Shown one piece after another: positions 2,373 through 30,245 of a DNA stretch of 32,000 bases (its first letter is position 1; every line of letters begins with the position of its first letter). A program made the translations under genes and the position numbers. The notes below the pieces were generated by a model. That model saw only the letters and a list, made by a program, of their open reading frames with translations. It did no database searches and had not been told where the DNA came from. The DNA lies in assembly GCF_000015585.1 (NCBI RefSeq), contig NC_008789.1:870001-902000 (forward strand). Direction: 5' to 3'. Origin of the DNA: Halorhodospira halophila SL1. GTDB taxonomy: Bacteria > Pseudomonadota > Gammaproteobacteria > Nitrococcales > Halorhodospiraceae.

Positions 2373-2432
2373 AGCGATCGTGGCGTGTCACAACAAGGGG
2401 TCCGCGCTACGCGCCGCGGGAAGACAGGAGGA

Positions 2433-7960: not shown

Positions 7961-8031
7961 AACCGGACCAAGGCACCGTTCGCGTCCCGCGAACCGAGTA
8001 TGGCTCGCCGCGACTTGCTCTAGAGCTGCAG

Positions 8032-8916
8032 GTGCACGGCATGGCGTTTCCCTGGCTGTCCGGTCCTGATACCCTTACCACCTATGTGCCCTCAGGTTCA
8101 CCGTTGCCTAAGCATACCCCGTCGACCATTATCCTCCCCGGTTACGAGCGAACGGTCCGGGACATCGCCTCGGCGCTCGAGGCAAACGTCCACCCCATCC
8201 GCGACCACTCTACTCTTGAACTTATTAAGTCCAGCAAAGCCCTGGTCTATCGCTGGTCGTGTGCCGAGAAACCGCCCCTTATTATCAAATTCTATTACGC
8301 GCACACCATCAAGGATCGGCTGAAAGCACTCCTGCGCCCCCCCAAATCACTATTACAAACGGCTCTGGCCCTGCGCGCGAAAGGCATTCGTGTACCGCGA
8401 CCCGTCGCCGCAATACAGGTCCATCTAGATTCCCGTAGATATGGCGCTTACATCATGGAGTGCGCGCCAGGAGCAACACTTAGAGAGTGGGGGCGCAAGG
8501 GCCTCCCTGATACTTACCATATGCACCTTGCAGAAGAGATGGGGTTCCTGTGGGGCCTTCTTTTACGCCACAACTACCTTCATATGGACCCCATACGGGG
8601 CAACTTTCTCTACGACACCGGTGGCGCCCTCACCGCTCTCGATATCGATAACATTTACAAACTTCCATGGTTACCAGACACTGTGCGCGCGCGTCGATTA
8701 CTCAAAATGGCACACTGGCATTTGCTTCGATCACCCCAGTTGCTTGGGGACACCCCGGAACGCGAGCTCATCAAGCGTTTTGTTCACGCCTATGCGCGGG
8801 GACGAGGGGTTACGGCTGTCGAGGCTTGGCGAGAATGGCGCCACGTTGTTGATCGGCTTGCTAGGCGAAACCCCCACGCTTATTACGTTTTGCAACGTGT
8901 CCCTCTGAGGCCGTAG
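8032..8916 (+). CDS. Protein-kinase-like fold protein, lipopolysaccharide kinase (Kdo/WaaP) family (paralog A)
   Basis: Motifs: LIIKFY (beta3 Lys), KDRLKALLRP..., GIRVPRPVA, catalytic loop HMDPIRGN (HxDxxxxN) and LDIDN. It lies in the lower-G+C block. Its stop abuts the ATG of the next gene. Confidence 0.6.
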   Translation: MHGMAFPWLSGPDTLTTYVPSGSPLPKHTPSTIILPGYERTVRDIASALEANVHPIRDHSTLELIKSSKALVYRWSCAEKPPLIIKFYYAHTIKDRLKALLRPPKSLLQTALALRAKGIRVPRPVAAIQVHLDSRRYGAYIMECAPGATLREWGRKGLPDTYHMHLAEEMGFLWGLLLRHNYLHMDPIRGNFLYDTGGALTALDIDNIYKLPWLPDTVRARRLLKMAHWHLLRSPQLLGDTPERELIKRFVHAYARGRGVTAVEAWREWRHVVDRLARRNPHAYYVLQRVPLRP

Positions 8917-9867
8917 ATGATTAGACACCACCGGGATATTAGTTACACCGTCGTCGTTCCGGTCTATAACAAGGCTCCTCATTTGGCGCGTTGCCTCGAC
9001 TCGATCCTCCAGCAACAGCGCCAGGACTTGGAAGTCATCGCGGTCAACGACGCTTCTACCGACTCAAGTCTCACTGTACTCGAGGATTATCAGCATAACT
9101 TACCAATCCGGATTTTTAGCCGTGACCAACCTGGCCCGGGTGGATACGCCGCTCGTAACCTGGCGATCGCGAATGCAAGATCAGAATGGATCGCGTTTTT
9201 GGACGCGGACGACACCTGGGAGAAAGGCTATTTAACCGAACTGGACGCCTTAAGGCGACGATTCCCAGAAGCTGACATAATCGGGACCGGTTATAGGATC
9301 ATCGATCCAGAAACGCAACACGACCACCGCTTTACGCGGCTGAACCGCAGCGGTGACCAACGCTGGATAAGCTTAAATAATTTCATCGATAGCTACTTGA
9401 ACCGTGGTGGCTGCTTTCAAACCTCTGCGACCGCAGCTCGCCGGAGCACGCTTTTAGCCGCTGGAGGCTTCCCAGAAAAAACGGCTCGCCAGGGTGGCGA
9501 CGTTGACACCTGGCTCCGCTGCATGCTCGTCGGAACCGGCGGCGCGTGGTCCCCTTCTGTCAAAATGCGCTATCACCGTGACGCGGTTAACCAGGTGACC
9601 GCGAACCCGGATAACCTGCGCCAACCTCACCCAGTGGCGACCACTGCTGCTTCGTATGCGCAAGCACTTCACGATCGCCAGCAGAAGCGACTTCTGCGTC
9701 GACTTGGCAACAAAAAGGGCCTAAAACGCGCACGTGATGCCGCAGCTGCCGGGCTCTATGACTACATTTTAGTAGCGGAATTAAACCGGTTCGACGCCGT
9801 CTACTGGCTTCACCGGGCCTTACTACCAGTTAAGAACATAGTCGCAAAAGGGCATCGGTTTGTTTAA
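8917..9867 (+). CDS. Glycosyltransferase family 2
   Basis: VVVPVYNKAPHLARCLDSILQQQ..LEVIAVNDASTDSS ... AARNLAIANARSEWIAFLDADDTW, which includes the GT-A DxD motif. Confidence 0.85.
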   Translation: MIRHHRDISYTVVVPVYNKAPHLARCLDSILQQQRQDLEVIAVNDASTDSSLTVLEDYQHNLPIRIFSRDQPGPGGYAARNLAIANARSEWIAFLDADDTWEKGYLTELDALRRRFPEADIIGTGYRIIDPETQHDHRFTRLNRSGDQRWISLNNFIDSYLNRGGCFQTSATAARRSTLLAAGGFPEKTARQGGDVDTWLRCMLVGTGGAWSPSVKMRYHRDAVNQVTANPDNLRQPHPVATTAASYAQALHDRQQKRLLRRLGNKKGLKRARDAAAAGLYDYILVAELNRFDAVYWLHRALLPVKNIVAKGHRFV

Positions 9868-11257
9868 CACACACAAAGCGTACTGGCGATCTATCCTTCC
9901 CCCCTTTGAGCCTTGGGCAAATGTCCGACTCGCGATCGCTGATCGCATTGGCTTCCTTGCCTTGCTCCTCATAGCCTTCACAGGGCTGTGGATCGGCGAT
10001 TTATACCGTCTTGGCCTGGCATTGGTGGTGGTTGCTTTCTTGATAGCCGCCGTGGACCTGTGGCCAAGCATGAAGCGCAGCGCTCTGTTTTGGGTCGGCG
10101 TCGCCTTCGTGCTCTTCGCTACGATACGCCACTGGGTGGCTGTGGTGGAGTTGGGCATCGATATGGTGGACTCGCCACCCAAGACCTCACAAATGATCCG
10201 CACCTCTCCGCTCCTGGTCGCTTTCGCGGCGATATGGCTCCGTGGGGACGAACAACGTCTAGTGTGGTTTCTGTCGGCGACGTTACTCGGTGCAATAGCT
10301 TGGCTTATTACGTCGACTCATTGGGACGCGTTTATTGAAATGTTCCGCAACTGGGACTGGAGCAACGCGCGTCGAGAGCTGTACGAAGGGAGCACCAACC
10401 GCACCCCATTTATTTATCTAGTTCTCAGCCTGGCTCTTATTACAATCGGCACTGGCTTTGTCGTACGATGCACCCATGTGTGGTGGCGTGCTGGCCTTTT
10501 CATCGCTTCCCTGACAATGGCCGTTGGATTCTTGTCGCTTACCTTGACCATCGAGACGCGTGGTGCCCAAATCGCAGCATTTGTGGCTTATGGGTTGCTT
10601 GCTGCGGCAATGGTCAGTAAGGGGCTCCGCCACCTCGGCATCATTAACCGGGGGACCCGCTGGGCATTAACGGCCACAGGGGGCGCAACCATCATTGCTA
10701 TCGGAATCGCGCTCTGGATCACCATCGGCACTAGTAGTGAGCGACTGCACAATACGATGGAGGCAGGAAAAGCGTTAGCACAAAATCCGGACTATCTCCA
10801 CGAGCCTTTCGAAGCGGCACAGGAGCATGACGCCATTCGAGCCGGGAGCGTAGTCCAGCGCCTCAACCTGGTAAGCTTGGCTGCTGATGCGATCGCGGAA
10901 CGACCATTGGTCGGATGGGGAGGAGGCACTAGTCATAAATGGGTACGCGAGTACGGACGTACTGATTTTCACAACTGGTATCTTGATGTAACGGTTGCTT
11001 TTGGTCTGATCGGCGCCGCCCTTTATTTCGGCGGCTTCGTCTATATCCTAGGAAGCAGCATTAGGGCCCGAATGATTCATCGACTTGATCCTCATGTCGC
11101 CCTGTTTGCCTTCAGCGCTACGGCAGCTTGGTTGACAACACAGCTATTCACCACTTGGATCAGCGCCGCACAAGGACGTTTTACATTAGTATTTATTGCG
11201 ACATTGTTGGCGTTCGCTCACACTGCGCGCTGGCTGCCGGAGCTACGAAAAAAATAA
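9860..11257 (+). CDS. O-antigen ligase / Wzy_C-domain polytopic membrane protein (WaaL-like)
   Basis: About 10-12 hydrophobic segments and a large loop ending in ERPLVGWGGGTSHKW...TDFHNWYLDVTVAFGLIGAALYF, typical of the Wzy_C domain. The start is uncertain (TTG at 9860). Confidence 0.7.
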   Translation: MFNTHKAYWRSILPPFEPWANVRLAIADRIGFLALLLIAFTGLWIGDLYRLGLALVVVAFLIAAVDLWPSMKRSALFWVGVAFVLFATIRHWVAVVELGIDMVDSPPKTSQMIRTSPLLVAFAAIWLRGDEQRLVWFLSATLLGAIAWLITSTHWDAFIEMFRNWDWSNARRELYEGSTNRTPFIYLVLSLALITIGTGFVVRCTHVWWRAGLFIASLTMAVGFLSLTLTIETRGAQIAAFVAYGLLAAAMVSKGLRHLGIINRGTRWALTATGGATIIAIGIALWITIGTSSERLHNTMEAGKALAQNPDYLHEPFEAAQEHDAIRAGSVVQRLNLVSLAADAIAERPLVGWGGGTSHKWVREYGRTDFHNWYLDVTVAFGLIGAALYFGGFVYILGSSIRARMIHRLDPHVALFAFSATAAWLTTQLFTTWISAAQGRFTLVFIATLLAFAHTARWLPELRKK

Positions 11258-11320
11258 AGAAAACAATAAAGGGGCTCATTTTATACACCAGAACAGCCCA
11301 CCAAAGGATTAAAGGCATAA

Positions 11321-12010
11321 GTGTACATAAAGACTCTTGGAATAGAGACAGACCGCGTCCCTCGAGTATTCCGGAGCCGGCATCTGCCTGGGAGGCGGAT
11401 TGTTGACATTCTAGGACCAACCGGCTGCGGAAAATCTACGTTTATGGCCCAAACACTCAGAGAACGACATTGGAAATTTAAAAAGGAGCCTGTTCGAGGC
11501 GCCCCGATCAAGGAAATTAGCGAGGAGCGGGCGCGGCTTTTAAACAGACACGCACAGCGTATAGCGAACCAGAATTTTCACCCGCTTTACATTAAGGAGG
11601 CGATCAAGAAAATTTGTTTAGACGAGGCGCTTGAGAAGAAAGACAGCTGTACCATCGTAGACGAAGGCTTCTTCTACTGGTTTATGCATGATCTATACGG
11701 AGCGATCCAGGAAAATCGCACCTGGGTGCACAAGCTGCTGCAGCGACGCGCAATTATTGAACTAATTGTTCCGCCTGAAAAAACAGCCGAACGGGCACTA
11801 TTTCGCTCTAGGAGAGGCGGCAAAGTGGCGCGCTGCCACGCAGAAAAAAGTTATCACGAAATCGTCAAGATGAGCGAGGAACGAATTATTGCGACAAATG
11901 CTTTTACAAAAGCGGTTGAACAACTCGGCGTTCCAGTTGCTCGGATTGACTGGGACGAGAAGACCCTAGCCTTTCACCGGGAAACGATTCAAAAGACGAT
12001 TTGCTCTTAA
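11321..12010 (+). CDS. Orphan P-loop NTPase/kinase-like protein of unknown function
   Basis: Walker A is ILGPTGCGKST and Walker-B-like is CTIVDEGF. It has a GTG start with AAAGG 5 nt upstream. This is the most A+T-rich gene in the window. No family recognised. Confidence 0.55.
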   Translation: MYIKTLGIETDRVPRVFRSRHLPGRRIVDILGPTGCGKSTFMAQTLRERHWKFKKEPVRGAPIKEISEERARLLNRHAQRIANQNFHPLYIKEAIKKICLDEALEKKDSCTIVDEGFFYWFMHDLYGAIQENRTWVHKLLQRRAIIELIVPPEKTAERALFRSRRGGKVARCHAEKSYHEIVKMSEERIIATNAFTKAVEQLGVPVARIDWDEKTLAFHRETIQKTICS

Positions 12011-12112
12011 CAGCCTGGTATCGCCAAACAGGCTAGAGACGGTACGAGCACGAGAACACCGGGTATTATGCGAATACGATTTTGATTTGGACGATGGATC
12101 GTGCATAGCGCG

Positions 12113-13009
12113 CTAGGCGCTGGTTCTAGATCCCGTGCCATGCCTCGAGAGCCCGAACATTGGCCGCAGGCAGCCACGATAAAACCGCAGCCCCTTATGG
12201 CGCACCCGACGCAACGGCAAATAAATCCACCACAGCACGAACCGCTCCGCATGACCCAGGTCCGCACCCCGCTTCTCCACGTAGGCTGCCCAGACGCGGG
12301 CGAAGTCCTCGTGCGAAAGTCGCAGCTTGAGGAGCAGACGGGCGGCGTTGAAGCAGCTCGGCCGCCCCTCGGCCAGCGCCTCCAGGTCGACGATGGTCAG
12401 CCCCTCTGTCTCGGCGCCCTCCTCCCCCCCTTCCGCAACGCTGGCAACGGCCAGCATATTCCCCATTCGGCAATCCTGTAGATAGACGCCGCTGGCGTGG
12501 AGCCGGGCCTGGAAGCGCCCCACCCGATCCGCCAGCTCGCCCAGCTCCGCACCCTCGTCCGGTTCCGGCAGCGGCTGGGCGTCGACGTAGCGGCAGATGA
12601 GGCAGGCGGCGACGACAGCATCCCCTTGGTAGCGATCCACTGCGCCGAGCGGCTGAGCAACGACACCCGGCAGCGCCCGGTCAAGGCGTCGCCCGGTTAG
12701 CCAGGCCGCCACCGCCGAACGTCGCTTGGTCTTGCCGGGGTTGGTGTACTTGAGCACCAGCGGACCAAACTCCTCCGTATCCAGACGATAGACATCGTGG
12801 CGCCGCCGAGAAGCCAACAACTCGCCGCGTACGGGCAACTCGGCCTCCCAGCGCGGCAGCCACTCCGCCAGCTCTGCCGGGGTCAGCACGCGGCTGTCGG
12901 TCAGCCACAGGGCACCGTCTTCGCCCTGCGCATGGGCAATAGCCGGGTCCTGGTGGGTTTCGGACTGAATACGGGCTTGGAGGTACTGCACGGACGTCGA
13001 ACCTAGCAA
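12113..13009 (-). CDS. Protein-kinase-like fold protein, Kdo/WaaP-like (paralog B)
   Basis: Motifs: LVLKYT (Lys), catalytic loop LQDCRMGN (xxDxxxxN) and IVDLE. The start is TTG at 13009 or GTG a few codons in. It is co-directional with, and 43 nt downstream of, the ParB-like gene. Confidence 0.5.
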   Translation of the reverse strand: MLGSTSVQYLQARIQSETHQDPAIAHAQGEDGALWLTDSRVLTPAELAEWLPRWEAELPVRGELLASRRRHDVYRLDTEEFGPLVLKYTNPGKTKRRSAVAAWLTGRRLDRALPGVVAQPLGAVDRYQGDAVVAACLICRYVDAQPLPEPDEGAELGELADRVGRFQARLHASGVYLQDCRMGNMLAVASVAEGGEEGAETEGLTIVDLEALAEGRPSCFNAARLLLKLRLSHEDFARVWAAYVEKRGADLGHAERFVLWWIYLPLRRVRHKGLRFYRGCLRPMFGLSRHGTGSRTSA

Positions 13010-13052
13010 CGTGGAACGAAGGCCCGTACTTTATCACGCTCGGCTTTTCGAG

Positions 13053-13823
13053 TTAGGCGGCATCGCCCGCCACGCCCAGGGTGTAGGCCGCCAGCCCCCG
13101 TCGCACCGCCTCGCCCGGATCCGGCTCCTGGTACGCGCGCATGCACCCCTCCACCCAGCGGCTGTGCACATGGCGGACGTGCACGACCACCGTGGGCACC
13201 GCCAGGATCTGCGCCATGGCGAAACGGTGGCGGCCGTTGCCCAGACGCACCAGCCGTCCGTGGCGATCGATGGCCACGCGGACGTCGTCCTTCGGCTCTC
13301 CGCCGAGCTCCTGCTGGCCGAGGAAGCCATTGGCGCGCATGTTCTCGTAGGCATCGAACATCCGCTGGAAGTAAGCCTGGAGCTCCTGCTCCCGCTTGAT
13401 CCCTTTGCGAACCGACTTCCCCTGAACCATCTTTCGATAGAGCTTGCGGTACTCGTCGGTCTGCTCGATGGGCAGCCCCTGCTCGAAGATCTGGTAGATG
13501 GTCCGGCTGTGCCGGCAAGCCTCGCGCCAGGTGGGGTCCGTCGCCAGCGGATAGACCAGACGGTCCCAGGGTCCGGCAATGAGCTGGTAGCCACCGAGGA
13601 TGTAGCTCGGCACATCCGCGTAGTAGTGTGCGATGCTCGCCAGCGGCACCCGAATACTGCGCTTCTTGGCGGGAAGGAGACTGGCGTCCGGCTTGCGCAG
13701 CCCCAGGCGTCGAGCAGCGAGGCGGGTGGAGGCCCGGCAGATCGGGCGCAGTGCGCTGCTGGCCAGGGCCCGCCGGGAACGGCGCAGGCGGGCCGGGAGG
13801 TTCAGGGCCGTGATATCGGACAT
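13053..13823 (-). CDS. ParB/sulfiredoxin-fold (ParB-like nuclease domain) protein
   Basis: VRVAIDRHGRLVRLGNGRHRFAMAQILAVPTVVVHV matches the ParBc pattern (I.V...g...i.dG.HR..A...lG...ipv.v). Amino-acid composition is normal (K/E/Y/F-rich), unlike the antisense shadow ORF. The start is taken as Met at 13823, and the track extension to 14081 is rejected. Confidence 0.55.
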   Translation of the reverse strand: MSDITALNLPARLRRSRRALASSALRPICRASTRLAARRLGLRKPDASLLPAKKRSIRVPLASIAHYYADVPSYILGGYQLIAGPWDRLVYPLATDPTWREACRHSRTIYQIFEQGLPIEQTDEYRKLYRKMVQGKSVRKGIKREQELQAYFQRMFDAYENMRANGFLGQQELGGEPKDDVRVAIDRHGRLVRLGNGRHRFAMAQILAVPTVVVHVRHVHSRWVEGCMRAYQEPDPGEAVRRGLAAYTLGVAGDAA

Positions 13824-13968
13824 GACGGGGCTTCGATGGGCCGCTTCGTGATCAAGCGACGGTACCGTACCACTCTCCTGCATGTTGAGCGAAGGCCGCC
13901 CGAGCCGCGTGATCCGGCCGGGAACAACCGCTAGACTGGGCCGTCGGCGCGGACGAAGCGGAGCCAGC

Positions 13969-14778
13969 ATGCGTTGCCACACCCTGGAGGAGACCCCCGC
14001 GGAGGAGCTTCGCACCGCAGCGGAGCGGCTGCTGATGGCCGGCACCGCCCCCGACGGCGCCGAGCTCGTCGCCCGACGCAAGTCCCGCGTCTACCGGTAT
14101 CCGCGCGAAGACGGGCGGGTGGTTTACCTCAAGCACTACTGCGCCACCCAACCCAAGGAGCGGCTCAAGCGGCTTGTGCGCAACCCGGTGCGCAACCTCG
14201 CCCTTTGGCAGCGACTCGACGGCCTCGGGATCGAGACGCCCCACCCGCTGCTCATCGCCGAGCACGGACGCGAGTCGGTGCTGGTCACCGCGGAGGTGGC
14301 GCACACCACCGCCCGGCAGTGGCTGCGCGATGGCCGCCCCCTGGAGCCGTCCCTGCTCGCTGCCCTGGGCACCACCTGGGGACGGCTGCACACCCACGGG
14401 ATGCAATACGTGGACCCGAGCCCGGCCAATGTCTTCATTCCCGACCCGATCCCGGAGGCGCTGGGGCTGCTGGATCTCGACTCGCTCTATCAGGTCGGAT
14501 GGATCCCCGAGTGGCTCGCACGCCAGCGCCTGGGGCAGCTCTTCTCACGCTGGAGCGCCGAGTGCGCCAAGCAGGACCAGCCGCCACCCGACCCGGAGGC
14601 CTTTCTCGCCTTCTGGCAGGCCTACGGGGCCGTCACCGGCCGGCCGACGCGCAGTCACGCCCTGGCCGTGGCCCGGCGGGTCGAGGAGCGGACCGCCCGT
14701 GGCCGCGGCGCCCGCGCGGGTGATCGACTGGCGGCGACCGCCCGGCGATGGCGGGAACGCGTCCTCGAGACCCGCTAG
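13969..14778 (+). CDS. Protein-kinase-like fold protein, Kdo/WaaP family (paralog C; closest to paralog A)
   Basis: Motifs: VYLKHY, KERLKRLVRNP, LGIETPHPL, catalytic loop YVDPSPAN, and LLDLDSLYQVGWIPEW (compare paralog A LDIDNIYKLPWLPD). The start is taken as ATG 13969. Confidence 0.6.
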   Translation: MRCHTLEETPAEELRTAAERLLMAGTAPDGAELVARRKSRVYRYPREDGRVVYLKHYCATQPKERLKRLVRNPVRNLALWQRLDGLGIETPHPLLIAEHGRESVLVTAEVAHTTARQWLRDGRPLEPSLLAALGTTWGRLHTHGMQYVDPSPANVFIPDPIPEALGLLDLDSLYQVGWIPEWLARQRLGQLFSRWSAECAKQDQPPPDPEAFLAFWQAYGAVTGRPTRSHALAVARRVEERTARGRGARAGDRLAATARRWRERVLETR

Positions 14779-14799
14779 CGCCCCCCCCCAGGCGCCGGG

Positions 14800-15348
14800 T
14801 TACGCGCTCCTCGGGCGGGGTGCGTAGTGCAGCACGAACTCGCCTTTCGGCCGTCCGCGCCCGAAACTCTGGAAACCACCGATGCGCTTGGCCGCCCGCC
14901 GGGCCGATTCGTTGTCCAGGCCGCGGTACTCCATGAGGTAGACCGCCATCAATGCGCCCGTGCGGCCGACACCGTGGACGCAGTGGATCACCACGGGCCC
15001 GTTGGCGGGGTCGTCCATCAGCTCGAGGAACGCCGCCACCGTGGATGCATCGGGCACCTGCGCCGAGGGGAGATGCACGTGGCGGATCCCGGCCGGCTCG
15101 AGCGCTGCCGCCTCGGCCTCGGCCCGATGGGCCTTGCGGCGCAGGTCGATCACGGTACGCACGCCCTGCGCCCGGCACAGCGCCACCAGGCGCTGGGGCG
15201 GCATCTCGGTGGTGCGGTAGAGGACGCCCGGCTCGATCGGGATCAGCCGGTAGTAGCCCACCGTCTGGAAAAACGCCTGCCAGCCGTTGAGGAATGCCCC
15301 CTCAAGCAGGTCCACGGTGGCGTGCCAAAGTTTACGTATGCGTTTCAT
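14800..15348 (-). CDS. Cysteine-based (CX5R) dual-specificity/tyrosine phosphatase-family protein
   Basis: The active-site P-loop is VVIHCVHGVGRTGALMAVYLM (HCxxGxxRT). An upstream Asp lies in SAQVPDAS. Confidence 0.75.
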   Translation of the reverse strand: MKRIRKLWHATVDLLEGAFLNGWQAFFQTVGYYRLIPIEPGVLYRTTEMPPQRLVALCRAQGVRTVIDLRRKAHRAEAEAAALEPAGIRHVHLPSAQVPDASTVAAFLELMDDPANGPVVIHCVHGVGRTGALMAVYLMEYRGLDNESARRAAKRIGGFQSFGRGRPKGEFVLHYAPRPRSA

Positions 15349-15419
15349 GATCGATGCAATTGTCTGGGGCTGGCGCGTATCCTACGCCGACACCCTGCTC
15401 AGGAATAGAACCCGCTGTG

Positions 15420-16271
15420 ATGGACACCCCCCGCGACCCGGCTGCTGCCACCCCGACGCCCTCCGTGCCGGAGGCCCTCCACCGCGAGGTCCTGGTGGCC
15501 CGCGACCAGGCGCGCAAGAACGTCTTCCTGCTAAGCCATCAGGGGCGTCAGGTCGTCGTCAAATTCCCCGATCAGAAGGGGCGCGGCTGGCTGCACGCCT
15601 GGTTGATGCGCACCACCGCCGCCCCGATGGTGCGCCACCCGTTGCCCGTTGCGCCGTTTCGTCTCAAGCCCCCGGCGGAGCGTACCGCCTTCGAGGCACA
15701 GCGCCTGCACGCGCTGGCTGAAGCCGGGGCTCCCGTGCCGCGGTTGGTGGGCCTCGGCGACGGCTATCTGATCATGGAGCACGCCGGACAGCGCCTGGAG
15801 AATTGGACACGGGACCTCAACCTGCCGCCTGCCGAGGTCGATGCCCGGGTGCTGGCTGCGGCACGGGCCCTGGCCCAGCTCCACTGCACCGGCGGCTGGC
15901 ACGGAGCACCGCAGTTACGCAACATCATGGTCCGGGACGACGGGAGCGTGGCCTTCATCGACTTCGAGGAGGATCTCTCCATCCTCGAGCCGGAGGCGCG
16001 CCACGCCTACGATCTGCTGCAGTTCCTCTCCTCGCTGGTGGTGCCGCGGGACGACGGCCCCCACCGCCCGGAACTGACCGAGCGGGCCGCCCGCGCCTAT
16101 CTTGCCCTGATGGGCGACGGCCCGTTGGGCCCGCTGGCCGCCTACCAGCGGCGGGCAGCCCGCATCAAGCGCTGGCTGGGCCCGGTGCGGCGGCGCCTGG
16201 GCAAGGACGTGCAGCGGACTTTCGGGGCAATCGACGTGGTGGAGGCCCTGCTCCGCGACCCCGCCCGCTAG
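15420..16271 (+). CDS. Protein-kinase-like fold protein with Asp-to-Ala substitution in the catalytic loop (paralog D; predicted pseudokinase or atypical enzyme)
   Basis: Motifs: VVVKFP (Lys), FEAQRLHAL (alphaC Glu), YLIMEHAG (hinge), WHGAPQLRN in place of HxDxxxxN, and FIDFEED. The start is taken as ATG 15420. Confidence 0.6.
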   Translation: MDTPRDPAAATPTPSVPEALHREVLVARDQARKNVFLLSHQGRQVVVKFPDQKGRGWLHAWLMRTTAAPMVRHPLPVAPFRLKPPAERTAFEAQRLHALAEAGAPVPRLVGLGDGYLIMEHAGQRLENWTRDLNLPPAEVDARVLAAARALAQLHCTGGWHGAPQLRNIMVRDDGSVAFIDFEEDLSILEPEARHAYDLLQFLSSLVVPRDDGPHRPELTERAARAYLALMGDGPLGPLAAYQRRAARIKRWLGPVRRRLGKDVQRTFGAIDVVEALLRDPAR

Positions 16272-17134
16272 TCGGCGGTCCGCTCCAGCCCACCCCGGAG
16301 GGCCTGCCCGAGGGCCGCGATGCGCCGGGCGTCCCCGCCCACCCAGCGGGCCACCCCAGCCATCACTCCCTGTATGCGCCGGGATCGCGACTGGTAGCGC
16401 TCCAGGCATCCGCGCGCTTGCGCGCCACCGGCGGTCTGCAGATAGGCCACCAATGCCTCTTCGGCCAGCGACACCTGGGGCGGGTGCTTCTTGCCCCGCA
16501 GGATCACCAGTGAGGAGAGAAACTTGACGATGTCGTTGGCGGCACATACCTCCGCAGGCACGGCCCGGAGGTCTTCTTCGAAGTCGATCAGGTGGATGGC
16601 CCCGGCCTCATCGACCAGCACGTTTCGGATGCGGGGGGCGCCGTGCCAGTGCCCCTGGGCGTGGAGCGAACCAAGCAGCTCGGCGGCCGCCACCACCTGA
16701 TCGCCGCAGGCGGCCCGCGGCTCGGTCGCCCGCCGCAGCTGCCGCTCGAGCGGTGTGCCCGCGGCCTCCATCACCAGATACCGGTTGGCCTTCACCCCCA
16801 CCAGCCGCGGCACGGGCGCCCCGGCACGGCGCAGCGCGTCGAGCCGGCCGGCCTCGAACAGGACCCGCGGTCCAGGCGCGGCCATTTGAAACGGCTCCAG
16901 CGGCAGCCGTTCACCGGCCATCGTCGAGGCGCTCATGCGCATGGCCTGGGACTTGATCCAGCTCCGCCCCTTGTCGTCCGGGAACTTGACGACCAGCTTC
17001 CGGCCATCCTGCTCCAGCTCAAGCACCGGCTTCCGGGCCTGCCCGGCCAACCCTTCGATCTGCTCCTGCAGCGCAAGCGGGACGGGGGGAAGAACCTCGG
17101 GGGGCGCGACTGCACTGACTGTCGACTGGTTCAT
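16268..17134 (-). CDS. Protein-kinase-like fold protein, paralog of 15420..16271, with the same Asp-to-Ala substitution (paralog E)
   Basis: Motifs: LVVKFPDDKGRSW, FEAGRLDALRRAGAPVPRLVG, WHGAPRIRN, LIDFEED and FLSSLVILR, collinear with paralog D. ATG at 17134. The track extension to 17926 is antisense to PAP2 and was rejected. Confidence 0.6.
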   Translation of the reverse strand: MNQSTVSAVAPPEVLPPVPLALQEQIEGLAGQARKPVLELEQDGRKLVVKFPDDKGRSWIKSQAMRMSASTMAGERLPLEPFQMAAPGPRVLFEAGRLDALRRAGAPVPRLVGVKANRYLVMEAAGTPLERQLRRATEPRAACGDQVVAAAELLGSLHAQGHWHGAPRIRNVLVDEAGAIHLIDFEEDLRAVPAEVCAANDIVKFLSSLVILRGKKHPPQVSLAEEALVAYLQTAGGAQARGCLERYQSRSRRIQGVMAGVARWVGGDARRIAALGQALRGGLERTAD

Positions 17135-17233
17135 GCGTGCGATTCTATGGGTTCCGCTTCTCTCGCGCCACCTGCGGGAAATCGCTACAATCCCGCACGT
17201 TTTGTCCACTGACGCCACCCCGGGATATCCAGG

Positions 17234-18079
17234 ATGCAGCACACCTACCGACGCCTTCTCGCAGGATCGCTCGGCATCGCTGTGCTCGTCGGGTTGAGCG
17301 GCGCTCCCGCCCCTACACACGCGGCATCCGGCGACACCCCGGGCCAGGCGGAATCCGCCCCCGGCGAGTACACGTACTGGGGCAACTTCCTGCGCATCCC
17401 GGCCCGCGCCGCCGGCGAGCTGGTGCGCACGGATCCGGAGGGGCTGCGGCGCAACGCCATCGCGGTGGGCTCCATCGCCGCCGCCTTCGCCCTCGATCAG
17501 CAGATCCGCGACACCATGCAGGACGACCTGCGCGGGCGCGATAGCGACGAACTCACCGATATCCTCTACGAGGTCGGGCGCCCGAAAGTCGCCCTGGCCG
17601 GTTTCGTCGGCGGCTACGCCTACAGCTTCCTGGCCCGGGATCGCTACTTCCGCGAGACCCTGCACCTCTCTTTCCAGTCCCTGCTGATCACGCAGGTCAT
17701 CACCGATACCACGCGGAATGTCGGGCGCGAACGGCCACGCAACAGCCCCGACGACGCCTTCAACTTCGGCAACCGCGGCGGGCAGTCGTATTTCTCGGGG
17801 CACGCCTCGGGGACCTGGGCGGTGATGACCGTACTGGCCTCCCGCTATCCGCACGCGCCGGTCCAGTGGGGCGCCTACGGGCTGGCCACCGCAGTCTCGC
17901 TCTCCCGCGTGCACGATGACGGGCACTGGACCTCGGATATCGTTACGGGTTCATTGGTCGGCTACGGCATCGGGCGACTCACCGTGGCCCTGGATCCTTT
18001 CGAGAGCGACCACGTCCACCTGACCCCGCACCGGTTCGAGGACGACGACTGGGGCGTGGGCCTCCACGCCCGTTTCTAG
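17234..18079 (+). CDS. PAP2-superfamily membrane phosphatase with signal peptide (candidate lipid A / undecaprenyl-PP phosphatase)
   Basis: Signal-like N-terminus LLAGSLGIAVLVGLSGAPAPTHA. PAP2 motifs TRNVGRERP (KX6RP-like), FSGHAS (SGH) and SRVHDDGHWTSD (SRX5HX3D). About six hydrophobic segments. Confidence 0.75.
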   Translation: MQHTYRRLLAGSLGIAVLVGLSGAPAPTHAASGDTPGQAESAPGEYTYWGNFLRIPARAAGELVRTDPEGLRRNAIAVGSIAAAFALDQQIRDTMQDDLRGRDSDELTDILYEVGRPKVALAGFVGGYAYSFLARDRYFRETLHLSFQSLLITQVITDTTRNVGRERPRNSPDDAFNFGNRGGQSYFSGHASGTWAVMTVLASRYPHAPVQWGAYGLATAVSLSRVHDDGHWTSDIVTGSLVGYGIGRLTVALDPFESDHVHLTPHRFEDDDWGVGLHARF

Positions 18080-18099
18080 GCGCTGACGAAGAGGCGAGT

Positions 18100-19995
<1,896 letters not shown>

Positions 19996-20058
19996 GCCCT
20001 GTGTTAAAGTTCCGACCTTCTGTCCTAATCCCCCGCGCTGGCAACGGAGCGCCGCGTC

Positions 20059-21141
20059 GTGACGCAAGTCGTCCTACAGATCCTCTTCGCCTTTGCGCTG
20101 ACCGCCGTGTTGTTGCTGGTCCTGCGCCGGCCGGCCCTGAAGGCCGGGCTGGTGGACCGGCCCTGTGGGCGCAAGCGCCACGGGCGCGTGGTGCCATTGA
20201 TTGGCGGGGTCTGCATCCTGCTCGGGTTCGTCGCCGCGAGCCTGCCGGCGGACTTCGGGCTGCGCGATTACCAGGGCCTGTTCGCCGGCATGGCGGTGCT
20301 GCTCATCGTGGGGGTGGTCGATGATCTGATCGATATCGACGCCTGGATCAAGTTCGGCGCCCAGGTGGTCGCCGCACTGCTCATGACCGTGTGGTCCGGC
20401 CTGGTGGTGGAGGACCTCGGGCAGCTGCTCGGTCCCCACGTGGCATTGGAGTTGGGCGCCCTGGCCGTGCCCTTTACGGTCTTCTGTGTGGTCGGCCTGA
20501 TCAACGCCGTGAACATGTTCGACGGCGTCGACGGCCTGGCCGCCGGCACCGTGGCCGCCGCCCTGGGCTGGCTGGTGCTGGCCGGTGCGGTCAACGGCGG
20601 CGCCAGCTGGCTGGTGCTGGCCGGGCTGTTCCTCGCCTCCGTCTGCGCCTTCCTGATCTTCAACATGCGCAACCCCTGGCGGCGCAAGGCGGCCTGCTTC
20701 CTGGGGGATTCAGGGAGCATGATGCTCGGCTTTGCCCTGGCCTGGTTCGCCGTAGAGGCCGCCCAGGGCGACCACGCCCTGCTGCCGCCGGTGGCCATCG
20801 CCTGGATCCTCGCCCTGCCGGTGCTCGACACCCTGACCCTGATGGGGCGGCGCATCCTCCGCGGCCGCCACCCGTTCCACCCGGACCGTGAGCACCTGCA
20901 CCACATCTTCTACCGCGCCGGCTTCACGCCGGGCCAGACCGTCACGGTGCTGGTCCTGGCCTCGTTGGCGCTGGGGAGTATCGGGGTGGTGGGCACCTGG
21001 TTGGGGGTGCCCGAGTGGGTTCTGGCCGCCCTCTTCGTGCCGGTGGCCGCGGCCCATCTGCTGGCCCAGGCGCGGGCGTGGCGCTTTGCGCGGCTGATGC
21101 GCCGCCAGCTGCGCTGGGCGCGCTCCCGCCTGCGGGGGTGA
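20059..21141 (+). CDS. wecA: Undecaprenyl-phosphate sugar-1-phosphate transferase, MraY/WecA family (GT4)
   Basis: LKAGLVDRPCGRKRHGRVVPLIGGV, VVDDLIDI and NAVNMFDGVDGLAAG are hallmark WecA/WbpL motifs. About 10-11 TM segments. Confidence 0.8.
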   Translation: MTQVVLQILFAFALTAVLLLVLRRPALKAGLVDRPCGRKRHGRVVPLIGGVCILLGFVAASLPADFGLRDYQGLFAGMAVLLIVGVVDDLIDIDAWIKFGAQVVAALLMTVWSGLVVEDLGQLLGPHVALELGALAVPFTVFCVVGLINAVNMFDGVDGLAAGTVAAALGWLVLAGAVNGGASWLVLAGLFLASVCAFLIFNMRNPWRRKAACFLGDSGSMMLGFALAWFAVEAAQGDHALLPPVAIAWILALPVLDTLTLMGRRILRGRHPFHPDREHLHHIFYRAGFTPGQTVTVLVLASLALGSIGVVGTWLGVPEWVLAALFVPVAAAHLLAQARAWRFARLMRRQLRWARSRLRG

Positions 21142-22463: not shown

Positions 22464-23771
22464 ATGCGCTGGACCCCCTTGACCGCTGCGGCCCTCGCCA
22501 CCCTGCTGCCGCTGACCGCGGCCGCCAACCACCACCCTGCCGGCTCGGCGCTGGGCTTTGGCGATGCCACTCGCTTTGCCGACACCCAGGGCAGCAAGCA
22601 GAACCCCGCCGGCCCCATCGCCGCCAGCGACCGGGGCGTGCGCATGGGCGTCTTCGCCCTCGGCCTCTCCTACGAGCTGGGCGATGTCGCCGACTTCAGC
22701 GACGACTTCGAGGCGCTCGGGGAGGAGCTCGAAGACCTGGAGCGGCTGCTCGAGGAGGTGGAGTCGGGGGACGTCGATCCCGACAACGCCGAGGACGAGA
22801 TTGAGTCATTCCAGGCCAATGTGAATGAAATCCTCGACCGCATCGGTGAGGACGGCTACCTGACCGCCGGGGTCACCGGGCAGTTCGTGCCCTTCCCCTT
22901 CGAGACCACCCAGGACGCCCTGCGCGGCTCGCTGCTCATCGATCTGGACTACAGCCTGCGCGGGCACATCTCGGTGCTCCGGGGGGAAGACCTCGACCTG
23001 AGTATCGACGACCAGGATGACGCCGGGGACGCTTTGGACACCCTCGACGGCTTCGGCGGTTACGTCCGCAGCGCCGTCACCCGGACGTTCACCCTCGGCT
23101 ACGGCTCCGCCGTCTACGAGAACCGGCAGGGATTGCTCTTCGCGGGGGCGCAGCTCAAGCACCACCAGGTGGAGCTCTCGCGGATGGCGGTGGGCTTCGA
23201 TGACGACCCGGGCAGCCAGCTCAGCGACGAATTCCGCGAGAACGCCGAGACCGACTCGGATCTCGGGGTGGATCTGGGGGTGATGTGGGTCAGCGACCGG
23301 TACCGGGCCGGGGCCAGCGTGGCCAACCTGATCGAGCCCACCTTCGACTACCCGGCGGTGGAGGACGACGACACCTTCGACGCCGCCGCCGAGCGCGGCG
23401 AAATCGACCGGGATGAGTCCTACCGCATGGAGCGCCAGCTCAGCGTCGAAGGAGCGGTCCACACCGACGACGGACGCTGGCTGCTGGGCGGCTCGCTGGA
23501 TCTCAACCCCGCCGACGGGCCCTTTGCCGCCGGCTCCGAAGACGCCTACCAGTGGTTGACCGTGGGCGCCGCTTACCGTTCGCCCCACGCCGCCCTGCCC
23601 GGATGGCGACTGGGCTATCGGCAGAACCTGACCGGCTCGGAGCTCGGCTACCTGACCGGCGGTGTGACGCTCTTCCGCGTCCTGAGCCTGGATGCGGCCA
23701 TGAGCACGGAGACGGTGGACTCCGTGCCGCGGGCGTTCATGCTCAACGCCGGCGTGGGGCTGCGCTTCTAG
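22464..23771 (+). CDS. Secreted acidic outer-membrane beta-barrel protein (TraF_2-like family suspected)
   Basis: The signal peptide is MRWTPLTAAALATLLPLTAAA. The C-terminal half has alternating beta-strand patterns, and it ends in the OMP-type terminus AGVGLRF. It has a long Asp/Glu-rich helical insert. Confidence 0.5.
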   Translation: MRWTPLTAAALATLLPLTAAANHHPAGSALGFGDATRFADTQGSKQNPAGPIAASDRGVRMGVFALGLSYELGDVADFSDDFEALGEELEDLERLLEEVESGDVDPDNAEDEIESFQANVNEILDRIGEDGYLTAGVTGQFVPFPFETTQDALRGSLLIDLDYSLRGHISVLRGEDLDLSIDDQDDAGDALDTLDGFGGYVRSAVTRTFTLGYGSAVYENRQGLLFAGAQLKHHQVELSRMAVGFDDDPGSQLSDEFRENAETDSDLGVDLGVMWVSDRYRAGASVANLIEPTFDYPAVEDDDTFDAAAERGEIDRDESYRMERQLSVEGAVHTDDGRWLLGGSLDLNPADGPFAAGSEDAYQWLTVGAAYRSPHAALPGWRLGYRQNLTGSELGYLTGGVTLFRVLSLDAAMSTETVDSVPRAFMLNAGVGLRF

Positions 23772-28412: not shown

Positions 28413-28415
28413 GGT

Positions 28416-29982: not shown

Positions 29983-30245
29983 CAATCCTCCCCGGCCCGG
30001 AAGCGCCGGGGGACCCGGGTGAAGGCCACGGCGATCACCGCGGCCAGGACCACAAAGAGCAGCGCCACGTCACGCAGCGCCGGCAGCGCCATGGCCTCGG
30101 CGAGAAGCAGCAGCACGGCCACGGTGGTGGTGCCGAACAGCAGCGCGGCGAGCATACGATCGGCGGCCGTGGGGCCGCGGTGAACGCGCCACAGCCCGGC
30201 GAGGAGATTGAGCAGCAGGAAGACGGCGAGGCCCAGGTCGAGCAT
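29982..30245 (-). CDS. mrpF: Mrp antiporter subunit F
   Basis: A small three-TM protein with RVHRGPTAADRMLAALLFGTTTVAVLLL (MrpF/PhaF G-P-T..DR motif). The start is taken as ATG 30245. Confidence 0.75.
   Translation of the reverse strand: MLDLGLAVFLLLNLLAGLWRVHRGPTAADRMLAALLFGTTTVAVLLLLAEAMALPALRDVALLFVVLAAVIAVAFTRVPRRFRAGED

What the first reader, a model, noticed from the sequence alone, without database searches (positions are those of the whole stretch)
12113..13823. ParB/sulfiredoxin-fold protein apparently co-transcribed with a kinase-fold protein
ORF 13823..13053 carries a ParBc-like core (VAIDRHGRLVRLGNGRHRFAMAQILAVPTVVV). This follows a Lys/Glu/Tyr-rich helical region and an Arg-rich N-terminus. 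After 43 nt it is followed by kinase-like paralog B on the same strand.

ParB/Srx folds are nucleotide-binding modules: CTP in ParB, ATP in sulfiredoxin, and some archaeal ParB-like proteins act as small-molecule kinases. A ParB/Srx protein inside an LPS-type locus is therefore more likely a nucleotide-dependent transferase or kinase than a DNA-partition protein. I could not match it to any known LPS enzyme.
Basis: partly seen in the sequence, partly recalled or inferred. Interest (0 to 1): 0.6.

Follow-up and report, generated by a model that had tools for sequence, protein, structure and literature searches.

The report
Unnamed ParB/sulfiredoxin-like protein in glycan loci
A 256-residue Halorhodospira protein in the lipopolysaccharide-core gene cluster belongs to a large, unnamed family with a remote ParB/sulfiredoxin-type nucleotide-binding core that mostly sits in surface-sugar biosynthesis loci, not DNA-partition loci, so it is probably a nucleotide-dependent sugar-modifying enzyme whose chemistry is unknown.

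Summary
ORF 13823..13053 (-) encodes a 256-aa protein, identical to a Halorhodospira halophila hypothetical protein. It carries the quoted GNGRHRF core and lies 43 nt upstream of an APH/kinase-fold gene.

Pfam, NCBIfam and PDB sequence searches find nothing. An exhaustive profile search finds 2,686 cluster representatives (569 at E<=1e-10), so this is a large unnamed family.

The ParB/Srx call is supported only remotely. With a pLDDT-91 model, the top ~34 PDB and most BFVD Foldseek hits are ParB/Srx proteins, but none beats E=0.017. hhalign against a sulfiredoxin profile aligns residues 178-219 in register with GGCHR (score 32; 31 controls reach at most 20.5).

Family context is glycan biosynthesis:
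- Glycosyltransferases, flippases and WaaL-like ligases are the commonest neighbours in 116 genomes.
- 17 of 31 long members are fused to SAM methyltransferases; others are fused to GT or TagF-like domains.
- There are no phage hits, and only four plasmid hits, all in haloarchaeal glycan loci.

The kinase pairing recurs only in one close relative, and kinase B is not a BLAST-detectable paralog of the neighbouring kinases.

Best reading: a nucleotide-dependent glycan-modifying enzyme, most likely a phosphotransferase. The chemistry is inferred, not shown.

The parts
13053..13823 (-). 256-aa ParB/Srx-like protein, a member of an unnamed family. Layout: N-terminal Arg-rich helix (residues 11-39); strand 56-60; GPWD motif (84-87); helical insert (98-165); C-terminal core of strand, hairpin, G195-N-G197-R-H199-R200 helix and strand (178-220).
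   Evidence: ORF and sequence. 100% identity to an H. halophila hypothetical protein. Family size. Conserved columns G84, W86, D87, Y125, G166, Q170, E/D180, G189, G197, H199, R200 (invariant), L207, H220, W223. Model pLDDT 91.1. Fold matches. hhalign to Srx.
13224..13241 (-). Codons for G195-N-G-R-H-R200. This is the GxxR 'P-motif' (Box II) equivalent; it aligns in register with sulfiredoxin F96-G-G-C-H-R101.
   Evidence: hhalign alignment. R200 is the only invariant column in 116 sequences. The role of the GxxR arginine in NTP binding is taken from PMC12704722.
12113..13009 (-). Kinase-fold protein B (APH/protein-kinase-like). Same strand, 43 nt downstream of the target (up to ~61 nt if its start is the internal GTG). 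Probable operon partner.
   Evidence: Pfam APH 28.7 bits. D-x4-N and DLE motifs retained. Ortholog directly downstream of the target's ortholog in L003, 62% identity. No terminator-like site between the genes, although the scan found none anywhere in the region.
13824..13881 (.). 58-nt divergent intergenic region between the target (-) and kinase-like gene A (+). Presumed to hold both promoters.
   Evidence: Coordinates. No sigma-70 consensus match was found, so the promoter is not located.
13882..14778 (+). Kinase-like protein A (weak Kdo/WaaP-family and Bud32-like match), transcribed divergently from the target.
   Evidence: D-x4-N motif YVDPSPAN.
8917..21141 (.). Surrounding LPS-core-type cluster: GT2; WaaL-like O-antigen ligase; P-loop kinase-like protein; kinase B; the target; kinase A; DSP-type phosphatase; kinase-like C and D; PAP2 phosphatase; MsbA-like ABC exporter; WecA/MraY-type transferase.
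   Evidence: Pfam and NCBIfam scans.

Best explanation
The gene encodes a stand-alone member of a large, so far unnamed protein family. Its core is a highly diverged ParB/sulfiredoxin (ParB-CTPase) fold. It works in cell-surface glycan assembly, here on the lipopolysaccharide core, and not in DNA partition.

Most likely mechanism (inferred):
- The conserved G-x-H-R helix start binds the phosphates of a nucleoside triphosphate, as it does in sulfiredoxin, SerK/SbnI and ParB.
- Conserved acidic and polar residues contributed by the family-specific insert (GDWD, Tyr125, Gln170, Asp/Glu180) bind the acceptor.
- The protein then transfers a phosphoryl group, or another nucleotide-derived group, to a sugar of the lipid-linked core.
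- It acts at the cytoplasmic membrane face, which it may reach through its basic N-terminal helix.
- It acts in the same pathway step series as the downstream kinase-fold protein B.

What is shown and what is inferred:
- Shown: family membership, conserved motif, fold-level similarity, genomic and fusion context.
- Inferred: nucleotide binding, phosphotransfer, the acceptor, membrane association.

Of the 0.45 confidence in a nucleotide-dependent glycan-modifying enzyme, about 0.3 is for phosphotransfer specifically.
For: Fold:
- The AlphaFold model built on 116 homologs has pLDDT 91.1 and pTM 0.87.
- The top ~34 Foldseek hits in PDB are all ParB/Srx proteins. They include the ATP-using sulfiredoxin and the serine kinase SbnI (probability 0.85, rmsd 3.6 A over 64 columns).
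- BFVD gives the same picture (probability up to 0.99).
- hhalign against a sulfiredoxin profile gives E = 1.3e-4. GRHR aligns on GCHR. The score of 32.1 compares with at most 20.5 in 31 reversed or shuffled controls.

Motif:
- R200 is invariant and H199 and G197 are conserved in at least 90% of 116 diverse members.
- The equivalent GxxR arginine is required for NTP binding across ParB-fold proteins (PMC12704722).

Context:
- In 116 genomes the commonest neighbours are GT4 (35 loci), GT2 (14), Wzx-type flippases (12), WaaL/Wzy_C (6), sugar epimerases and nucleotidyltransferases. 59 of 115 loci have at least one such gene within three genes.
- In Halomonadaceae and Ectothiorhodospira the family member sits beside GT4, WaaL-like and EptA-like genes, as in this window.
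- Haloarchaeal members lie in glycan clusters, often as 3-4 tandem paralogs. This is typical of specificity-diversified modifying enzymes.

Fusions:
- 17 of 31 long members carry a C-terminal class I SAM methyltransferase. Others carry GT1, GT2 or TagF-like domains, and one a sugar-acid dehydratase-like domain.
- The methyltransferase part of one fusion has the WbdD methyltransferase as its best PDB sequence match (E = 1.2e-4). WbdD pairs a methyltransferase with a kinase to cap O-antigen with methyl phosphate. A ParB/Srx-type kinase in the same role is therefore a coherent analogy.

Local context: the window is packed with phosphorylation genes, namely four kinase-fold genes and two phosphatases.
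Against: - No search reaches conventional significance for ParB/Srx. Pfam PF02195 is silent. All Foldseek E-values are at or above 0.017 and cover only about 64-85 of 256 residues. hhalign probability is only 54%.
- No nucleotide binding or catalysis has been tested. The Srx catalytic Cys and the ParB catalytic Glu of GERR are both absent, because position 198 is variable.
- The closest sister subgroup (P0004 and P0005, 35-40% identity) is not in glycan loci (L001, L133).
- About half of the surveyed loci show no recognisable glycan gene within the 8-kb pieces available.
- The link to kinase B is confined to the Halorhodospira-like clade. If the protein were itself a kinase, an adjacent kinase would not be required.
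- The WbdD match is marginal. Generic methyltransferases score almost as well.
Confidence: 0.45

Rival explanations
1. It is a nucleotide-gated accessory or switch subunit rather than a catalyst. The ParB-type fold binds and perhaps hydrolyses an NTP. Through dimerisation or a conformational change it then regulates or scaffolds partner enzymes (kinase B here; methyltransferases or glycosyltransferases where fused). This would be analogous to ParB, Noc and KorB acting as CTP switches.
For: - The fold's best-studied role is as an NTP switch, and fusions of PF02195 domains to SAM methyltransferases bind ATP (PMC12704722).
- The family domain is fused to several unrelated catalytic domains (methyltransferase, GT1, GT2, TagF-like, enolase-type), as a regulatory module might be.
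- No residue equivalent to a known ParB/Srx catalytic residue (Srx Cys99, ParB Glu of GERR) is conserved.
Against: - Tandem arrays of 3-4 paralogs inside single glycan clusters look more like specificity-diversified enzymes than regulators.
- Many polar residues outside the phosphate motif are nearly invariant (D87, Y125, Q170, E180, H220, W223), which suggests a substrate pocket.
- Most members are stand-alone proteins with no constant partner gene.
Confidence: 0.22
2. It transfers a different nucleotide-activated group. One example is a glycan sulfotransferase using PAPS or APS; another is a nucleotidyl or phospho-alcohol transferase. This would explain the abundance of the family in halophiles, whose surface glycans and exopolysaccharides are often sulfated.
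For: - The genome sample is dominated by haloarchaea, Halomonadaceae and MAGs whose names suggest saline or soda-lake origin.
- One methyltransferase-fused member lies in an EPS locus next to the sulfate-activation genes CysD and CysN, with no recognisable sulfotransferase in the 13 kb available.
- In L003 the target-kinase pair is followed by a gene whose N-terminus (HIGFNKTAST) resembles a sulfotransferase PAPS loop. This resemblance rests on my reading of the sequence, not a database hit.
Against: - No ParB/Srx-fold sulfotransferase is known.
- CysD/CysN homologs were found near none of the other 120 loci.
Confidence: 0.1
3. It is a classical ParB-like DNA-binding, nuclease or partition protein, or a mobile-element gene, that merely happens to lie in the LPS cluster.
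For: - One UniRef entry for a haloarchaeal homolog is named 'ParB-like nuclease'.
- IS elements are present elsewhere in the window.
- In H. halochloris an IS200-like transposase gene lies downstream of the ortholog.
Against: - No HTH domain or dimerisation domain, and no Pfam ParBc match.
- No ParA among the 25 most frequent neighbour families.
- No phage hits, and only 4 hits in 72,556 plasmids, all non-mobilizable haloarchaeal replicons in glycan loci.
- GC content of the gene matches the chromosome.
Confidence: 0.03
4. The ParB/Srx resemblance is convergent or vestigial. The protein would then be a non-nucleotide-binding structural or carbohydrate-binding component of glycan assembly machinery.
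For: - All fold and profile matches are sub-threshold and limited to a ~65-85-residue alpha/beta core.
- 17 of 28 purified bona fide ParB-fold proteins showed no NTP binding in vitro (PMC12704722).
Against: - The part that matches is exactly the phosphate-binding motif, in register, and its Arg is the single invariant residue of the family.
- Shuffled controls do not reproduce the profile score.
- Two independent structure libraries return the same fold at the top.
Confidence: 0.15

Closest known systems
Sulfiredoxin (Srx), the ATP-dependent ParB/Srx-fold enzyme (PF02195)
   Same: - Best structural matches (PDB 7lj1, 3hy2, 3cyi, 6ky4).
- Best profile match: residues 178-219 align on Srx 79-120, with G-x-H-R on G-C-H-R.
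- Small, without a DNA-binding domain.
   Different: - The Srx catalytic Cys99 is Arg198 here, and that position is variable in the family.
- This protein is twice as long, with an N-terminal basic helix and a ~70-residue helical insert carrying the GDWD and Tyr125 motifs.
- Not detected by PF02195.
- Prokaryotic glycan-locus context instead of peroxiredoxin repair.
Free serine kinases SerK (Thermococcus) and SbnI (Staphylococcus), ParB/Srx-fold small-molecule kinases
   Same: - ParB/Srx core used for phosphoryl transfer to a hydroxyl group rather than for DNA clamping (established knowledge; summarised in PMC12704722).
- SbnI is among the best-superposing hits (6nr6: probability 0.85, rmsd 3.6 A over 64 columns).
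- Part of a biosynthetic gene cluster.
   Different: - No sequence-level similarity detected.
- The SerK/SbnI C-terminal domain is absent.
- The acceptor here would be a glycan or sugar, not serine.
Canonical ParB, Noc and KorB CTP-dependent DNA clamps
   Same: Shared core fold and GxxR phosphate motif (PMC12704722).
   Different: - No HTH domain, no C-terminal dimerisation domain, no ParA partner and no parS context.
- The GERR Glu is not conserved.
- Not on plasmids or phages.
WbdD, the E. coli O9a O-antigen chain terminator (methyltransferase plus protein-kinase-fold kinase)
   Same: - A functional analogy only. A methyltransferase is physically coupled to a second nucleotide-using domain in a glycan pathway.
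- The methyltransferase of a fused family member has WbdD as its top PDB sequence hit (E = 1.2e-4).
- 17 of 31 long family members have this two-domain layout.
   Different: - The second domain is ParB/Srx-like, not protein-kinase-like.
- The domain order is reversed (family domain N-terminal).
- The Halorhodospira protein itself has no methyltransferase domain.
- The match to WbdD is marginal.
PF02195 ParB-fold fusions to SAM methyltransferases surveyed by Kaljevic et al. 2025 (PMC12704722)
   Same: ParB-type fold fused to Methyltransf_23-type domains. The tested examples bind ATP.
   Different: - That survey was seeded with PF02195. This family is invisible to PF02195, so it was presumably not covered.
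- The Methyltransf_23 fusions in that survey are enriched in phages and read as DNA methylases. The fusions here sit in glycan loci.

Membership tests
ParB/Srx (ParB-CTPase) fold superfamily | Core alpha/beta fold: strand-hairpin, helix beginning with the phosphate-binding motif, then a strand | tested here: inconclusive
   A high-confidence model returns ParB/Srx proteins as the top ~34 PDB hits and as most named BFVD hits. Probabilities reach 0.91-0.99 and rmsd is 2.9-5 A over 64-72 columns. However, all E-values are at or above 0.017.
ParB/Srx (ParB-CTPase) fold superfamily | Conserved GxxR P-motif (Box II) at the N-terminus of the core helix | tested here: met
   G197-R-H199-R200. R200 is invariant, and G197 and H199 are conserved in at least 90% of 116 members. 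The motif aligns in register with Srx GCHR, with a score above 31 controls.
ParB/Srx (ParB-CTPase) fold superfamily | Match to the Pfam ParBc model PF02195 | tested here: not met
   No hit at E<=10 for the target. None among 116 members at E<=0.01 or 31 long members at E<=0.001.
ParB/Srx (ParB-CTPase) fold superfamily | Binds a nucleotide (ATP, CTP, GTP or ADP) | not testable with these tools
   Needs purified protein, for example DRaCALA or ITC with an R200A control.
Canonical ParB partition proteins | HTH DNA-binding domain and C-terminal dimerisation domain | tested here: not met
   No Pfam domain of any kind. The model shows only the core plus a helical insert.
Canonical ParB partition proteins | Adjacent ParA ATPase; plasmid, phage or origin-proximal context | tested here: not met
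   Neighbours are kinase-fold and LPS genes. No ParA among the top neighbour families in 203 flanking ORFs. No phage hits; four plasmid hits, all in glycan loci.
Sulfiredoxin | Catalytic Cys in the F-G-G-C-H-R motif | tested here: not met
   The aligned position is Arg198 in the target. It is N, T, H, R, S or another residue across the family.
SerK/SbnI free serine kinases | Sequence homology, including the C-terminal domain and the catalytic Glu/Asp | tested here: not met
   No sequence hit to SbnI or SerK chains in PDB searches with the single sequence or the profile. There is only a local structural superposition of the N-terminal core. Catalytic-residue equivalence was not testable without coordinates.
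WbdD-type bifunctional glycan terminators | Methyltransferase and kinase domains in one protein, acting on a polymer terminus | tested here: not met
   The target has no methyltransferase domain. Relatives do, in 17 of 31 long members, but with a ParB/Srx-like second domain rather than a protein-kinase-like one. This is an analogy only.
The unnamed family itself (GDWD ... DEIxVxIDRxG ... GGxHRxAxAxxL ... VHxxW) | Full-length profile match and retention of the near-invariant columns | tested here: met
   The target seeds the profile. It retains G84, W86, D87, Y125, G166, Q170, D180 (Glu in most members), G189, G197, H199, R200, L207, H220 and W223. There are 2,686 representatives at E<=1e-3.

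The most novel reading that the evidence does not exclude
This family would be a previously unrecognised branch of the ParB/Srx fold that has been recruited as a catalytic glycan-modifying enzyme. It would be the first ParB-fold enzyme acting on carbohydrates.

It would install a charged substituent (phosphate, methyl phosphate together with the fused methyltransferase, or possibly sulfate) on LPS cores, exopolysaccharides and archaeal N-glycans.

If the substituent were sulfate, it could be the glycan sulfotransferase that, to my knowledge, has not been identified in haloarchaea and Halomonas.
Probability: 0.3. Interest if true: 0.8.

Novelty: new variant of a known kind. Interest (0 to 1): 0.6.

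Why it matters
The ParB/sulfiredoxin fold is currently being re-evaluated as a general nucleotide-binding module (PMC12704722). That survey was seeded with Pfam PF02195, which does not detect this family.

The family has at least 2,686 clusters at 50% identity. It spans Bacteria and Archaea, including Bathyarchaeia, Thermoplasmata and an Asgard MAG. No Pfam or NCBIfam model matched the members tested here.

If the family binds nucleotides, it extends the fold into carbohydrate and envelope biochemistry.

It also gives concrete candidate genes for unexplained substituents on LPS cores, on halophile exopolysaccharides and on archaeal surface glycans. Examples are phosphate, methyl phosphate and sulfate.

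The recurrent fusion to SAM methyltransferases suggests a WbdD-like two-step capping chemistry built from a different kinase fold.

For genome annotation, it would replace thousands of 'hypothetical protein' labels in glycan clusters.

Tried and rejected
- Pfam and NCBIfam scans of the target and Pfam scans of 116 family members: nothing relevant.
- PDB sequence searches with the single sequence and with the profile: only chance-level hits.
- First AlphaFold run with 4 sequences: pLDDT 69, too weak to trust. It was replaced by the 116-sequence run.
- The search for related loci with alignments A2, A3 and A4 failed, with no sufficiently conserved stretch. It was replaced by a hand-made degenerate DNA pattern for G.HR...A..L.....PV.....H..W. 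That pattern returned 120 loci, of which 116 are true members.
- The idea that kinase B co-occurs with the family across genomes was rejected. It is adjacent only in L003 and L004.
- The idea that kinase B is a close paralog of the neighbouring kinases was rejected.
- The 287-aa gene upstream of the Natronococcus homolog was tested as a possible kinase B relative. It is not one; it is another paralog of the family itself.
- Promoter and terminator scan of 11800-14200 found nothing, so it says nothing about the operon.
- PDB searches for kinase B and for the third gene of L003: no hits.
- Sulfation lead: Haloferax Agl7 (HVO_2046) is implicated in glycan sulfation. Neither its sequence nor its annotation table could be retrieved, so family membership is untested. 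CysD/CysN homologs were absent from the other loci.
- Source names for ten family representatives were uninformative.
- Literature searches for a ParB/Srx protein in polysaccharide biosynthesis found none.
- Active-site geometry (GDWD relative to the GxHR motif) could not be examined, because model coordinates are not exposed.
Full report
**1. What is there**

The window is Halorhodospira halophila chromosome. The 256-aa product of ORF 13823..13053 (-) is 100% identical to an NCBI 'hypothetical protein [Halorhodospira halophila]' found on a 2.68-Mb contig.

- an Arg-rich N-terminus;
- a Lys/Glu/Tyr-rich helical middle;
- the core VAIDRHGRLVRLGNGRHRFAMAQILAVPTVVV (residues 183-214);
- a same-strand kinase-fold gene (13009..12113) after 43 nt.

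The overlapping + strand ORF (13011..13934) is a high-GC artefact. The - strand protein has thousands of homologs.

The surrounding 12 kb is an LPS-core-type cluster. It contains:
- a GT2 glycosyltransferase;
- a WaaL-like ligase;
- a P-loop kinase-like protein;
- kinase B;
- the target;
- kinase-like A (divergent);
- a DSP-type phosphatase;
- kinase-like C and D;
- a PAP2 phosphatase;
- an MsbA-like exporter;
- a WecA/MraY-type transferase.

**2. Family**

Pfam, NCBIfam and PDB sequence searches give nothing for the target.

The word-indexed protein search found only four relatives: H. halochloris (74% identity), a metagenomic protein (75%) and one at 40%.

A profile of these four, run exhaustively against 1.84 billion cluster representatives, found 2,686 proteins at E<=1e-3. 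Of these, 569 are at E<=1e-10 and 16 at E<=1e-30.

An alignment of 116 of them (A2) shows a well-defined family signature:
- F..xGDWD;
- R(S/T)..Q(I/L)F..G;
- (D/E)QY;
- GY..Q.ELG;
- DEI.V.IDR.G.L;
- GG.HR.A.A..L.....PV.V..VH..W.

Arg200 is the only invariant column. G84, W86, D87, Y125, G166, Q170, E180, G189, G197, H199, L207, H220 and W223 are each conserved in at least 90% of members.

None of the 116 members matches any relevant Pfam model. No Pfam or NCBIfam model covers the members tested.

**3. Is it ParB/Srx?**

A first AlphaFold model built from 4 sequences was weak (pLDDT 69). With the 116-sequence alignment the model reached pLDDT 91.1 and pTM 0.87.

Foldseek against PDB returns ParB/Srx-fold proteins as the top ~34 hits:
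- human and Arabidopsis sulfiredoxin;
- Caulobacter, Myxococcus and Bacillus ParB;
- Noc, KorB and PadC;
- the serine kinase SbnI;
- Atu1540.

The BFVD viral library gives the same picture. For example, a Lactococcus phage ParB-like protein matches with probability 0.99 and rmsd 2.9 A over 64 columns.

No hit has E<1e-3, however. The best values are 0.029 in PDB and 0.017 in BFVD. The aligned part is only about 64-85 residues.

Profile-profile comparison gives independent support:
- hhalign of A2 against that single sequence gives E = 1.8e-3.
- hhalign of A2 against an alignment of 18 sulfiredoxins gives E = 1.3e-4 at 54% probability.
- Residues 178-219 align on Srx 79-120. This places G197-R198-H199-R200 on the Srx ATP-site motif G98-C99-H100-R101.
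- In my control the real score is 32.1. The reversed profile scores 9.9, and 30 column-shuffled profiles score at most 20.5.

The secondary-structure order also fits a ParB/Srx domain: strand 56-60, a long helix ending in GY..Q, a hairpin, the motif helix, then a strand. The domain would carry a ~70-residue family-specific helical insert holding the GDWD and Tyr125 motifs. That mapping is my inference.

My conclusion is a remote but real ParB/Srx relationship. The phosphate-binding GxxR motif is kept. The Srx catalytic Cys and the ParB GERR Glu are not.

**4. Context across genomes**

The target has no tblastn match in 50,697 phage records. In 72,556 plasmids it has four matches, all on non-mobilizable haloarchaeal megaplasmids. 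For the three regions I inspected, the neighbours are flippase, glycosyltransferase, epimerase, AglF, sugar-transferase, PAP2 and O-antigen-ligase-family genes.

Three haloarchaeal contigs from the protein database show the same glycan context. One carries three tandem paralogs.

For a wider sample I scanned the GTDB species genomes with a degenerate DNA pattern for G.HR...A..L.....PV.....H..W.
- 116 of 120 returned loci encode a true family member by HMM.
- They come from Halomonadaceae, Ectothiorhodospira, Alcaligenaceae, Rhizobiales, Balneolaceae, Bacteroidales, Chloroflexota, Cloacimonadota, WOR-3, Trueperaceae, Bacillota, a Mycobacterium, Halobacteria, Bathyarchaeia, Thermoplasmata and a Promethearchaeota MAG.

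Among 203 immediately flanking ORFs the most frequent Pfam families were:
- GT1/GT4: 21 ORFs;
- GT2: 10;
- Polysacc_synt flippases: 9;
- class I methyltransferases: about 7;
- Wzy_C: 5;
- sugar epimerases/dehydratases: 3.

No ParA, phage or protein-kinase family was among the top 25.

Clustering all ORFs within three genes gave:
- GT4 in 35 loci;
- GT2 in 14;
- Wzx-type flippases in 12;
- ABC ATPases in 9;
- WaaL/Wzy_C in 6;
- epimerases in 6;
- sugar nucleotidyltransferases in 4.

59 of 115 loci have at least one such glycan gene (the ABC ATPases were left out of this count).

In Halomonadaceae and Ectothiorhodospira the family gene lies next to GT4, WaaL-like and sulfatase-family (EptA-like) genes. 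That is an LPS-core cluster, as in this window.

There are counter-examples. The closest sister subgroup (P0004 and P0005, 35-40% identity) lies among unrelated metabolic genes.

**5. Fusions**

Of 31 family members longer than ~350 aa:
- 17 carry a C-terminal class I SAM methyltransferase;
- 3 carry a GT1 domain;
- 2 carry a TagF-like glycerophosphotransferase domain;
- 1 carries a GT2 domain.

Other representatives are fused to GT1 or to an enolase-superfamily sugar-acid dehydratase-like domain.

The methyltransferase half of one fusion has the WbdD methyltransferase as its best PDB sequence match. The match is weak (E = 1.2e-4).

One methyltransferase-fused member sits in an EPS locus with Wzy_C, Wza, Wzc, an FkbM methyltransferase and the sulfate-activation genes CysD and CysN.

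**6. The kinase partner**

Kinase B matches Pfam APH above threshold and keeps its catalytic motifs.

The pair is conserved in the metagenomic relative L003, with a 12-nt gap and 75% and 62% identity. In H. halochloris an IS200-like transposase gene follows the ortholog instead.

No kinase-B homolog is adjacent in the other 116 genomes. The pairing is therefore clade-specific. It is compatible with co-transcription (same strand, short gap) but is not a family-wide rule.

Kinase B is not a BLAST-detectable paralog of A, C or D.

**7. Mechanism**

Shown: a conserved family; a ParB/Srx-type phosphate motif whose Arg is invariant; glycan-locus and glycan-enzyme-fusion context; no partition context.

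From the literature:
- The GxxR Arg is required for NTP binding in ParB-fold proteins.
- The fold binds CTP, ATP or GTP depending on the protein (PMC12704722).
- Srx, SerK and SbnI use the fold for phosphoryl transfer.

Inferred: the Halorhodospira protein binds an NTP and modifies a sugar of the LPS core, most simply by phosphorylation. It would work alongside kinase B in a cluster already rich in kinases and phosphatases.

The methyltransferase fusions suggest that in other organisms the same domain supplies the phosphate that a WbdD-like methyltransferase then caps.

Alternatives are:
- an NTP-gated accessory subunit;
- transfer of another group such as sulfate;
- a non-nucleotide-binding structural role.

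A DNA-partition or nuclease role is very unlikely.

**8. Novelty and verdict**

The fold class is known, and its versatility has recently been emphasised. That survey was seeded with PF02195 and so would not have captured this family.

My literature searches found no report linking a ParB/Srx protein to polysaccharide or LPS biosynthesis.

I rate it a new variant of a known kind: a large unnamed branch of the fold in a new biological setting, with its chemistry still to be established.

The fold call is right but remote. The 'envelope enzyme, not partition' inference is well supported by context. The kinase partnership is local rather than general.

Noticed in passing
window 15354-16271 (+) and 16268-17926 (-): Kinase-like C and the C-terminal half of kinase-like D are true paralogs (44% identity). 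Both read HGAPxxRN where Kdo/RIO-type kinases have HGDxxxxN, so Ala replaces the catalytic Asp. They may be pseudokinases or use a different catalytic arrangement.
   Followed up: partly
window 8001-12000: GC content drops to 0.49-0.56, against 0.65-0.72 on either side. The stretch holds an unassigned 294-aa ORF, a GT2, the WaaL-like ligase and a P-loop kinase-like gene (11321-12010). It looks like a horizontally acquired, variable part of the LPS cluster.
   Followed up: no
window 642-3466 (-): Insertion-sequence genes at the window's left end: a DDE_Tnp_1 transposase (642-2372), an rve integrase-core ORF (2433-3086) and an adjoining small ORF.
   Followed up: no
window 14800-15348 (-): A dual-specificity/PTP-type phosphatase (HCVHGVGRTG) sits between kinase-like genes A and C. 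A PAP2 phosphatase lies at 17234-18079. The cluster thus combines four kinase-fold genes with two phosphatases.
   Followed up: no
window 23768-30000: AT skew of about +0.3 with GC of 0.71-0.78 over ~7 kb. The - strand here carries ORFs for very hydrophobic, apparently multi-pass membrane proteins that resemble antiporter/NuoLMN-type subunits by eye; I ran no family scan. I think their codon composition explains the skew, so this looks ordinary.
   Followed up: partly
L005 4574-8732; L028 4860-7998; L127 3273-6091: Haloarchaeal glycan clusters carry three or four tandem or adjacent paralogs of the family. This suggests diversification of substrate specificity.
   Followed up: partly
L134 11006-12950: The sulfate-activation genes CysD (PAPS_reduct family) and CysN lie just downstream of a methyltransferase-fused family member in a Wzy/Wza/Wzc EPS locus. 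No recognisable sulfotransferase is present in the 13 kb held. No such link was found in the other loci.
   Followed up: partly
L003 1810-2793: The gene after the target-kinase pair in the metagenomic relative starts ...LILHIGFNKTASTWFQ. To my eye this resembles a sulfotransferase PAPS-binding loop. It has no Pfam or PDB hit and no counterpart in the window.
   Followed up: partly
L013-L132 (genome scan): The sample of family-bearing genomes is rich in halophiles and apparently saline-habitat MAGs: about 40 haloarchaea, about 17 Halomonadaceae, Balneolaceae and Trueperaceae. This may be biology, since sulfated or charged glycans are common in halophiles.
   Followed up: no
L001 1-2303; L133 4766-8798: The sister subgroup closest to the Halorhodospira clade (P0004, P0005) is not in glycan loci. 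In both contigs a luciferase-like monooxygenase gene lies nearby.
   Followed up: no
L037 247-7938; L099 1893-8000: Cloacimonadota encode giant proteins (2,563 aa and at least 2,036 aa) that contain the family domain. Among the 31 long members scanned together, two carry TagF-like glycerophosphotransferase domains and four carry glycosyltransferase domains. The aggregated output does not say which members, so the architecture of these two giants is not established.
   Followed up: no
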